From Chrysomallon squamiferum (Eukaryota; Animalia; Mollusca), in assembly GCA_012295275.1 (NCBI GenBank), contig CM022671.1:1984001-2048000 (forward strand): a stretch of 64,000 nt of DNA, given 5' to 3'. Positions within the stretch are counted from its first letter, which is position 1, and the number at the start of each line of letters is the position of its first letter. Position numbers and translations under genes: made by a program. The notes beneath the pieces are model-generated. The model had not been told where the DNA came from. It worked only from the letters and a program-made list of their open reading frames with translations, and ran no database searches. Shown here piece after piece: positions 61,225-63,575 of this stretch.

Positions 61225-62420
61225 TTAAAGGTGTAACTTTATTAATTCATCACTGACAGTTGATGGAGTCATTACTGATATTATGCTTGATACTGGAAAA
61301 CAGCAATAACATAAACAAAAAATATTTTAGAAATATTTTGTTGTTTTTGTCAAATAACTGTGTACAGTCCTAGTAATTTAACAAAAATAAGAATTATATA
61401 TATATATTTTTTTTATTAAATTGTAGCAAATAAATAACATTGGTGAAAATGATGCCATTATTGTAAAGCAAATAATTTGAAATATAAGAAGTATTTAGTA
61501 TTTCACAAATATAATATCAGAATTTTAGCAAAACAAAAATAAATAAAATACTGAAATGTAGATAAATCAGACAGAGAAACAGACAGATTTAATTAAAATG
61601 AACAAAAGGGGGGGGGGGAAATGGGGTAATTATAAAAAATTAAACCAAATTAATAAATATCTTTAAAAAAGAAAAAGGGAAATAAATTATTTTAAAATGT
61701 GATAAAAATATGAATCTATTTCAAATTACCTTAAACTGATTTGGAATATCCTGCTTGTTCAGAGGATAGAGTTGAACAAACTTAAAACTTTCAGCAACTA
61801 CGTACACTGGTTTATTCATAGCTTTAGCTGATATGGCCATTGTGTATGTTCAAATCTGTACAGAAACAATAACAGAAGCATTAAAGTCTACCTCACACGA
61901 TTTGTCACACTTCTACATGAAAATGTATTTGTTTGTTGCACAAGTCTGTATTAATAATAAATTATTATGGTAAAATAATAACCTTCCACACACCTGAACT
62001 GACATTTTCCTGAAAAGAAAAAAACAATTCCCCTGCTAATAACACAGTTATTGGATGAAAAGAAAAAACAACAACTCCCCTGGCTATTTTGCAAGAATTT
62101 ACTCAGATTTGTAACATATTTCTATTTATGTAAATCTCAGTACTGTTACATCTTCATAAACCTGTTAGTTTATTGATCATCTTTATTACTATTATTATTA
62201 TTATTATTATTATTATCAATACTTATGTTGGACCCAAAATAAATGTTAACTAGATACTTTATTTATAATTCCTCCACTTTCTACTACTCCTTCTTTTTCC
62301 ATTACATACCTAAATAAGGATAATAAAATTATTTGAAGCAAGATTATACAAGATTTTATTTCAAGTAATTGATACAAGAATGCAAAATTAATATATTCAG
62401 ACAAAAATAATAAACTAAAC

Positions 62421-62480
<60 letters not shown>

Positions 62481-63575
62481 ACTTTAAAACCCTGAATTGA
62501 TTGAACAGATTACCACTGTGATTATGAAAAATTAATATAGCTATGCATACATGGAAAGCCGGTTATACAGAGAGGGTGGACAACATAAAAATGTGGATAT
62601 TTGTAAAGAAAGGAAATAATGATTATTAGAAATAAATCAGTATTTTAATTTTTGAAACCAACTTACCCTACTGCAGAATCCAAAACAACAGCTGAATGTC
62701 TGACACCTGAAGAACTATAAATATACCTGCTATTTTCATTTAAACTGAACAATAAGTGCCAATTCTTTGGCTGTTGTTTTACCTGTTCTTTTAGGGTTGT
62801 TTTCTTTTAAAAGTAAATAAATATAGAGAAACAGAAATAAAGAATGAAACCACCCATACACATACAGAAACAAAGAATGAACGACATAGATATAACAACA
62901 ATATATTTCAGATCCAAATGCAAATATATTTCTGAATATATTTTTATTTATAATGTGAATAAATTAATCCTTTTAAAATTTATTTTATGTCATGTTTTTT
63001 GTTGTTGTTTTTTAACTTTTCTTTGGACATAATGACATACATTTTCAGAATGCTGCTTTATTTTATTAATAACAAAAACTGTAACAGTATTAAATAATAC
63101 AATGATCTGGATATATATGAAATACATTTAGAATATTATTCTGTGTAACATCAAGGCTGATGTTAACAACCAATATCCAGTGTTTTCTTTAAGCCTAGGT
63201 TTCATTATCTATTTTAATAAAAAAGATTGCCTCTCTTTTTAAAATAGAAAGACAATGTGAATCTTTTTGAGAATGTGCTGAGAAAAAGGTTTTGTACAGT
63301 TTTGATAAATATTCTTGAGAATATGTTTTAAAAAATAAAATAAAATAAAATAATAATACATGAAAAAAGAAAATATTTTAAGTAAGATGACTATAAATTT
63401 ACTTAACGCTATAAATAAAAGATAATATTAAACAGATGAATGTTGGTTTTAATTTTCTTTACCCTGATTTGTCAGGAAGAGATTCTGTGACATAGACTTT
63501 AAATCTTTTCTTGGCTTCTGCAGCCTTCTTTAATATTTGAAGTACAACTCTTCATCGTGAATGTGTTAGTGCCGT
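61225..63575 (-). pseudogene. EIF2B1: Unprocessed pseudogene of translation initiation factor eIF2B subunit alpha (last five exons; 5' part outside the window)
   Basis: Exons: 63463-63575 (TALTHSR*RVVLQILKKAAEAKKRFKVYVTESLPDKSG), 62667-62726 (...AVVLDSAVG), 62258-62309 (YVMEK--------EGVVESGGIINK), 61730-61855 ([41 protein letters not shown]) and 61225-61292 (YQA*...VMTPSTVSDELIKLHL*). All have GT-AG boundaries. Confidence 0.9.

What the first reader, a model, noticed from the sequence alone, without database searches (positions are those of the whole stretch)
61225..63575. Intron-retaining eIF2B-alpha pseudogene: possible loss of the integrated-stress-response regulatory subunit
Seen: five spliceable exons with clear eIF2B-alpha sequence, none in the ORF track, carrying independent lesions. 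TGA replaces Ser in THSRSRVV (63552-63554), TGA replaces Gly in NKIGT (61850-61852), and TAA follows YQA in the last exon. An 8-codon deletion removes the DLVxVGA strand (62258-62309), a large deletion removes the VDYTxP...LLFTDLG segment, and the 5' half of exon 62667-62726 is scrambled. Known: eIF2B-alpha dimers join two beta-gamma-delta-epsilon tetramers into the decamer and mediate inhibition by phospho-eIF2alpha; yeast GCN3 is non-essential. Inference: clean deletions and nonsense substitutions look like real decay rather than homopolymer errors. If this is the only copy, the animal runs eIF2B without alpha and would have a rewired stress response. Otherwise it is a dead segmental duplicate.
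Basis: partly seen in the sequence, partly recalled or inferred. Interest (0 to 1): 0.8.

Follow-up and report, generated by a model that had tools for sequence, protein, structure and literature searches.

The report
Dead spare copy of snail eIF2B-alpha
The window holds a broken, intron-bearing copy of the stress-response gene eIF2B-alpha from what is likely a deep-sea vent snail, and the same animal also makes a spliced message without the breaks that could be checked, so this is most likely an ordinary decaying duplicate and not a loss of the gene.

Summary
The pseudogene is real; the gene loss is not supported. Five exons of the 3' 60% of eIF2B-alpha lie at 63575-61225 (minus strand), 113 of 127 residues identical to Gigantopelta aegis. 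In public runs of the same organism the 24- and 88-nt deletions exist as DNA, but both RNA runs laid hold a spliced contig with a full-length last exon (105+51=156 nt) and the conserved Gln and Tyr, all four runs read Gly instead of the second TGA, and a DNA run holds the missing VDLVLVGA codons. Broken and intact types co-occur in 4 of 4 runs, with three or more haplotypes in one run, which favours a duplicate over an allele. The window is the ancestral EIF2B1 neighbourhood (4 of 5 gastropods), so the working copy likely sits close by. The first TGA and the 29-nt deletion were not checked against reads, and the intact locus itself was not seen. No earlier scan finding covers this gene.

The parts
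63463..63575 (-). Exon A remnant (residues 125-162 of Gigantopelta eIF2B-alpha), full length, with TGA for Ser132 at 63554-63552
   Evidence: not checked against reads
62667..62706 (-). Exon B remnant: CQT, then a 29-nt frameshifting deletion (CKELSALGIP gone), then SAVVLDSAVG; a second, weaker AG at 62727 would give 60 nt and keep the frame
   Evidence: not checked against reads
62258..62309 (-). Exon C remnant with in-frame 24-nt deletion of VDLVLVGA at 62294/62293
   Evidence: deleted form in X7 record 23 and X1 record 8, undeleted form as X1 loose end at 62294
61730..61855 (-). Exon D remnant, full length, with TGA for Gly212 at 61852-61850 and R238Q, Q244K at invariant columns
   Evidence: TGA in 0 of 4 runs laid
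61225..61292 (-). Exon E (last coding exon) remnant with net 88-nt frameshifting deletion, TAA at 61283-61281, Y302H, native stop at 61227-61225
   Evidence: deleted form in X1 record 1 and X2 record 9 with 0 differences; intact form in X7 record 17 and X9 record 24
61056..61094 (-). Downstream acceptor used by one RNA contig that splices exon D past the deleted exon E; would add LTQTAAQLNKRQ and a stop
   Evidence: X9 record 27 and loose end at 61726, junction reproduced with the one expected mismatch; one contig, depth 4
60058..60257 (.). 200-N assembly gap about 970 nt past the stop codon; one place where a neighbouring copy could be hidden
   Evidence: role inferred
5061..5807 (-). VWA-domain exon of a cartilage-matrix-protein-like gene, used as synteny marker for the EIF2B1 neighbourhood

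Best explanation
This is a broken, intron-bearing copy of EIF2B1 that most likely arose by DNA-level duplication of the gene, likely close to its ancestral site, and is likely decaying because a second copy still supplies eIF2B-alpha. Shown: the lesions in the window; two of the deletions in independent DNA; a spliced message of the same organism with a full-length last exon; both types in every run laid. Inferred: that the two types are separate loci, that the working copy lies near by (past the window's right end or in the gap), that the intact message is whole in its 5' half, and that the dead copy makes no useful protein. Spliced as annotated it stops at the 8th codon of exon A and lacks 141 of 540 nt of the C-terminal domain; it appears still to be weakly transcribed, splicing exon D to a downstream acceptor. 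The animal would therefore build an ordinary eIF2B decamer with a normal stress response.
For:: joint 61730 to 61275 with 105 letters between in X7 (depth 14.1) and X9 (4.6), absent from both DNA runs; 105+51 = 156 nt, the exact length expected for exon E. The same contigs carry Gln244 and Tyr302, and neighbouring contigs Arg238 and Gly212, all invariant in 20 of 20 homologues; their 3' ends match the window's 3' UTR region (3 differences in 126 nt for X7), so they are from this organism. X1 has two contigs with a loose end at 62294 whose letters read as VDLVLVGA codons (my reading by eye). For two loci: both types in 4 of 4 runs from 4 samples (at most 0.0625 if these were heterozygous single diploids); three contigs cover 61580 in X2 (depths 9.62, 8.09, 9.04) plus a fourth form at 3.2, and like forms occur in X1; 11 contigs that I picked as window-type differ from the window by 15 of 1797 letters (0.8%) against 14 of 98 (14%) plus 78- and 110-nt gaps for intact-type intron; depth of intact-type to deleted-type is 1.55 (X1, 4 places) and 2.03 (X2, 5 places), not 1:1. 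Relaxed selection: 6 of 53 invariant columns broken against 0-2 for each of 20 intact proteins; 4 of 5 listed differences from the reads in exons D and E change the protein, pN/pS about 1.1. Synteny: the VWA gene's best hits share a sequence with EIF2B1 in H. asinina, H. cracherodii, P. vulgata and P. caerulea (locus tags 004195 and 004202), not in the fragmented H. rubra. Tandem-duplicate and hemizygous DNA is common in mollusc genomes (bioRxiv 10.1101/2020.09.15.298695, passages).
Against: The intact locus was never seen: no genome is held, no second copy is in the window, no metagenome contig matched. Intact evidence covers only exon E, part of D and the exon C piece, in separate contigs; the 105 letters were not printed, so their frame is unchecked; both RNA runs come from one study. 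The runs may be pools of animals, which would weaken the haplotype-count and 4-of-4 arguments. The 0.8% figure is partly circular (contigs chosen by likeness; I left out X7 record 22, X2 record 12 and X1 record 5, which are mosaic or more divergent). Exons differ far less than introns (5 of 174 nt; 1 synonymous change in 37.7 sites), which needs a recent loss of function or gene conversion. The N:S count rests on five sites, two of which (61773, 61852) are not seen in window-type contigs, and 14 rows of differences were not shown. Contig depth is no copy number.
Confidence: 0.85

Rival explanations
1. The broken and intact types are alleles of the single EIF2B1 locus: an old null haplotype segregates at high frequency, and some animals would lack eIF2B-alpha.
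For: The broken copy sits in the ancestral neighbourhood; exon divergence between types is low; the deleted type has lower depth than the intact type in both DNA runs, as a 30-40% allele would in pooled DNA; most zebrafish eif2b alleles, a set that includes a late stop in eif2b1, were homozygous viable (PMC7752137, passages; eif2b1 is not named in that sentence).
Against: Three or four haplotypes in one run, the same forms in two studies, both types in 4 of 4 runs, and 14% intron divergence with large indels against 0.8% among window-type contigs; several lesions stacked on one allele need long survival of a null; alpha loss is harmful in human cells and mice (PMC7990499, PMC12406721, abstracts).
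Confidence: 0.07
2. EIF2B1 is a small copy-number-variable array in this snail (three or more copies) undergoing birth and death, and the window shows one dead member. This is a variant of the best explanation and its probability overlaps with it.
For: At least four intron forms and a third exon-D-bearing form (X1 record 5, depth 47.6) in the same run; intact-type depth 1.5-2 times the deleted type.
Against: No single-copy baseline depth was measured; pooled samples, AT-rich intron drop-out or repeats inside the introns could give the same picture; every mollusc listed has one named eIF2B-alpha cluster among the hits.
Confidence: 0.3
3. The lesions are assembly errors in the only, intact gene.
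For: Two other genes in the window have single frame breaks, an N gap lies 970 nt away, and the TGA at 61852 is in none of the four runs.
Against: The 88-nt and 24-nt deletions are present in short-read contigs of other samples, at 0-1 differences, with their own intron haplotype.
Confidence: 0.03
4. True unitary loss: the species has no working eIF2B-alpha.
For: The broken copy is at the ancestral site; the 5' half of the intact message was not seen.
Against: Spliced RNA with full-length exon E and conserved residues in 2 of 2 RNA runs; undeleted exon C codons in DNA.
Confidence: 0.02
5. The dead copy has been kept for its RNA or for a short peptide that tunes the working gene.
For: One RNA contig splices window-type exon D to a downstream acceptor.
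Against: One contig at depth 4 in one of two RNA runs; protein-changing differences accumulate as if neutral; leaky transcription is enough to explain it.
Confidence: 0.03

Closest known systems
EIF2B1 / eIF2B-alpha (Pfam PF01008), closest Gigantopelta aegis XP_041349691.1
   Same: 113 of 127 alignable residues identical (89%; Haliotis 81-82%); exon lengths A and D fit exactly; same gene neighbourhood as in Haliotis and Patella.
   Different: Two stops, three deletions (141 nt), four further changes at invariant columns; the N-terminal 124 residues are not in the window, which ends 425 nt upstream of exon A.
Unprocessed (duplicated) pseudogenes
   Same: Introns and splice sites kept, several disabling lesions, a working copy expressed in the same species, weak aberrant transcription.
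   Different: The parent locus was not located; the dead copy lies at or beside the ancestral position; more than two copies may exist.
Unitary pseudogenes (gene loss, e.g. GULO in primates; example recalled)
   Same: Intron-bearing remnant in the syntenic position.
   Different: An intact-type spliced transcript exists, which a unitary pseudogene by definition lacks.
Hemizygous / tandem-duplicate structural variation in molluscs (bioRxiv 10.1101/2020.09.15.298695)
   Same: Lower depth of the broken type and several haplotypes fit a variable duplicated segment; 39-85% of such deletions were flagged as tandem-duplication-containing in that paper (passage).
   Different: Hemizygosity of this segment was not measured; that paper's eight species do not include a vent snail.

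Membership tests
eIF2B-alpha (EIF2B1) | IF-2B (PF01008) Rossmann-like domain sequence | tested here: met
   Exon A 22.9 bits and exon D 35.4 bits, cut-off 22.4
eIF2B-alpha (EIF2B1) | Closer to alpha than to beta, delta or methylthioribose-phosphate isomerase | tested here: met
   10 of 10 PDB matches are alpha; all named hits among 28 proteins are alpha or unnamed/hypothetical
eIF2B-alpha (EIF2B1) | Open frame of about 303 residues | tested here: not met
   399 of 540 nt, stop at codon 8 of exon A, 8 stops when spliced as annotated
eIF2B-alpha (EIF2B1) | N-terminal helical domain exons | not testable with these tools
   No tblastn match for residues 1-124 in the window; window ends 425 nt upstream; no genome held
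Unprocessed duplicated pseudogene | Retains introns with GT-AG ends | tested here: met
Unprocessed duplicated pseudogene | Disabling lesions that are real DNA | tested here: met
   88-nt and 24-nt deletions in independent contigs; exon A and B lesions unchecked; exon D stop not seen in reads
Unprocessed duplicated pseudogene | A working parent copy in the same species | tested here: met
   Spliced intact-length exon D-E contigs in 2 of 2 RNA runs; 3' part only
Unprocessed duplicated pseudogene | Parent copy at a different locus (not an allele) | tested here: inconclusive
   Haplotype number, divergence and depth favour two or more loci; locus not seen
Unprocessed duplicated pseudogene | Loss of purifying selection | tested here: met
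   6 of 53 invariant columns broken vs 0-2 in 20 intact proteins; pN/pS about 1.1 on only 5 sites
Unitary pseudogene (gene loss) | No functional copy in the species | tested here: not met
Processed (retro) pseudogene | No introns | tested here: not met
   Four introns of about 360-760 nt (coordinates)

The most novel reading that the evidence does not exclude
The broken type is an old, many-lesion null allele segregating at 30-40% at the snail's only EIF2B1 locus, so that a share of wild animals live with no eIF2B-alpha: a natural animal knockout of the subunit that couples eIF2 phosphorylation to translation control.
Probability: 0.07. Interest if true: 0.7.

Novelty: new member of a known kind. 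Interest (0 to 1): 0.17.

Why it matters
As it stands it matters little: a decaying duplicate of a housekeeping gene, and a warning that an assembly can show the dead copy at the ancestral site and so suggest a false gene loss. It would matter if the dead type were an allele (animals without eIF2B-alpha, which human cells and mice do not tolerate well) or, less so, if EIF2B1 is amplified and copy-number-variable in a vent snail, since alpha supply sets how much eIF2B decamer forms (PMC7990499, abstract). Searches for a printed eIF2B-alpha loss or gastropod duplication found nothing relevant, in a library limited to open-access papers.

Tried and rejected
Whole-genome search: no genome is held for this window. 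Read check of exons A and B: not obtained, so the first TGA and the 29-nt deletion rest on the assembly alone. Second copy within the window: none by blastn or tblastn. Exact 31-nt exon D pattern in metagenome contigs: 0 matches. The organism's own intact protein: not among 28 hits, best identity 90%. MGAT2-like gene as a synteny marker: its Haliotis, Gigantopelta and Patella hits lie on other sequences than EIF2B1 and are only 36-44% identical, so I judged it a diverged paralogue and did not count it; told here because it does not support the synteny. Stop-codon recoding (TGA as Ser or Gly) rejected: the two TGAs stand for different residues and the deletions remain. Processed pseudogene rejected: introns present. 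'GCN3 is non-essential in yeast' is recalled; one search gave only passages saying alpha is readily lost from yeast complexes while mammalian complexes fall apart. Earlier scan findings on eIF2B: none. No structure or complex prediction was run; the question is one of copy number.

Full report
What is in the window. Reading 60500-64000 on the minus strand and translating it shows five eIF2B-alpha pieces. Exon D matches only alpha chains among solved structures (10 of 10), and exons A and D pass the Pfam IF-2B cut-off. A homologue search with exon D returned 28 proteins among 29 candidates, the named ones all molluscan. Over 127 alignable residues the closest of 20 full-length homologues is Gigantopelta aegis (113 identical), then Haliotis (103-104), so the animal is likely a neomphaline vent gastropod; an earlier scan note on the same genome guesses the scaly-foot snail, which agrees with this placement but which I did not test further.

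Lesions. Against the Gigantopelta protein the expected exon lengths are 113, 69, 76, 126 and 156 nt; the window has 113, 40, 52, 126 and 68. So A and D are whole but each has a TGA at a column invariant in 20 of 20 homologues; B has lost 29 nt, C 24 nt and E 88 nt net. Spliced this way the five pieces give 399 of 540 nt, with the first stop at codon 8 and 8 stops in all. The copy breaks 6 of 53 invariant columns that it covers; each of the 20 intact proteins breaks 0-2 in a leave-one-out count. Residues 1-124 have no match in the window, which ends 425 nt upstream of exon A.

Are the lesions real? Nine public runs of one coded organism, from three studies, hold the stretch. I laid four of them (RNA X7, X9; DNA X1, X2) on 61150-62410, which covers exons C, D and E. 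The deleted exon E is bridged with no difference by X1 record 1 and X2 record 9; the deleted exon C by X7 record 23 and, with 29 letters on one side, X1 record 8. These two lesions are real DNA in other samples. The TGA at 61852 is not: every contig over it reads Gly in all four runs, including X7 record 22, which carries the window's intron type. Contig building drops variants (the DNA runs also lack the window's letter at 61757 that RNA contigs show), so this stop is unconfirmed, not disproved. Two unrelated genes in the window have single frame breaks, so the assembly may have small errors, but these cannot explain the deletions.

Is there a working copy? Yes, as far as it can be seen. X7 record 17 (depth 14.1) and X9 record 24 (depth 4.6) join the exon D donor at 61730 to 61275 with 105 letters between; neither DNA run has that joint. 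105 plus the 51 nt from 61275 to the stop is 156, the expected exon E length. The differences listed in D and E turn the window's stop, Gln, Lys and His into Gly, Arg, Gln and Tyr, all invariant columns. In X1, two contigs leave the window at 62294 with letters that read as the missing VDLVLVGA codons. The spliced contigs run on into the same 3' UTR region with 3-4 differences, so they are not from another animal in the sample. Limits: the 105 letters were not printed, the pieces are separate contigs, both RNA runs are from one study, and nothing upstream of exon C was seen.

Duplicate or allele? The VWA gene 56 kb away has its best hits on the same sequence as EIF2B1 in Haliotis asinina, H. 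cracherodii, Patella vulgata and P. caerulea, in the last only seven locus tags apart; H. rubra has them on two small scaffolds. The window is therefore the ancestral neighbourhood, and the intact type is a near neighbour, an allele, or a copy that moved. The MGAT2-like gene did not show this linkage. For separate loci: both types are in 4 of 4 runs; X2 has three contigs over 61580 and a fourth minor form, and X1 shows like forms; 11 contigs picked as window-type differ from the window by 15 of 1797 letters, the intact-type intron by 14 of 98 with 78- and 110-nt gaps; intact-type depth is 1.55 and 2.03 times the deleted type. Against: runs may be pools, the contig choice is partly circular (three more divergent or mosaic records left out), and exons differ by only 5 of 174 nt, which asks for recent decay or gene conversion. 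I put a duplicate at 0.85 and an allele at 0.07. The extra forms leave open that there are three or more copies (0.3, overlapping with the first).

How it works. After duplication one copy was spare; it gathered deletions and stops, and its differences from the reads are 4 protein-changing to 1 silent (P 0.70 if neutral, 0.02 if omega were 0.1; five sites only). It seems still to be transcribed: X9 record 27 carries the window's letters at 61756-61757 and splices exon D to an AG at 61096-61095, skipping the deleted exon; joining those coordinates reproduces the single mismatch reported. That is one contig at depth 4. A product would stop early and lack core strands of the C-terminal domain, so no function is expected (inferred). 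eIF2B in this animal would be the usual decamer.

Literature. In human cells without alpha, tetramers pile up and the stress response is on (PMC7990499; abstract and outline seen). A destabilising alpha mutation is lethal to newborn mice (PMC12406721; abstract and outline). In zebrafish most eif2b alleles, a set that includes a stop in exon 8 of eif2b1, were homozygous viable (PMC7752137; passages). Yeast complexes stay together without alpha, mammalian ones appear to dissociate (PMC4787765; passages). Hemizygous and tandem-duplicate DNA is widespread in molluscs (bioRxiv 10.1101/2020.09.15.298695; passages; supplements not seen). Searches for eIF2B-alpha loss or pseudogenes and for gastropod duplication gave listings with nothing on this case; I saw only titles and abstract starts there.

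Verdict. Observation partly confirmed with corrections; gene loss not supported; an ordinary duplicated pseudogene, interest 0.17.

Noticed in passing
window 45583-47116 (+): Intronless MGAT2-like gene (PF05060, E 6e-112) whose frame changes near 46019-46040, between the stem region and the catalytic domain; only 36-51% identical to its best hits. Assembly indel or a second pseudogene.
   Followed up: partly
window about 10530 (-), gene spanning about 2897-10929: Multi-VWA cartilage-matrix-protein-like gene with a one-base frame break in a short C run inside an otherwise clean exon; likely an assembly indel.
   Followed up: partly
window 61490-61770, one search runs X1 and X2: At least four forms of the intron after exon D, and a third exon-D-bearing form at low depth (X1 record 5), recur in two studies; may mean three or more EIF2B1-derived copies.
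   Followed up: partly
window 61056-61094 (-): Cryptic or alternative last exon used by one RNA contig of the dead copy; the AG used lies 7 nt after a stronger-looking pyrimidine-tract AG.
   Followed up: partly
window 56065-56472 (-): Exon for a signal peptide followed by cysteine-rich EGF-like repeats (MEGF/scavenger-receptor-like by eye); no Pfam match at E 0.01.
   Followed up: no
window 47513-48280 (+): 255-codon hydrophobic open frame that looks like a diverged multi-pass membrane protein; no Pfam match at E 0.01.
   Followed up: no
window 53868-54116 (+): 82-codon frame with an Ala-Asp repeat, no Pfam match; possibly an exon of an unrecognised gene.
   Followed up: no
window 60058-60257: The only assembly gap of the window lies 970 nt past the pseudogene's stop codon.
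   Followed up: no
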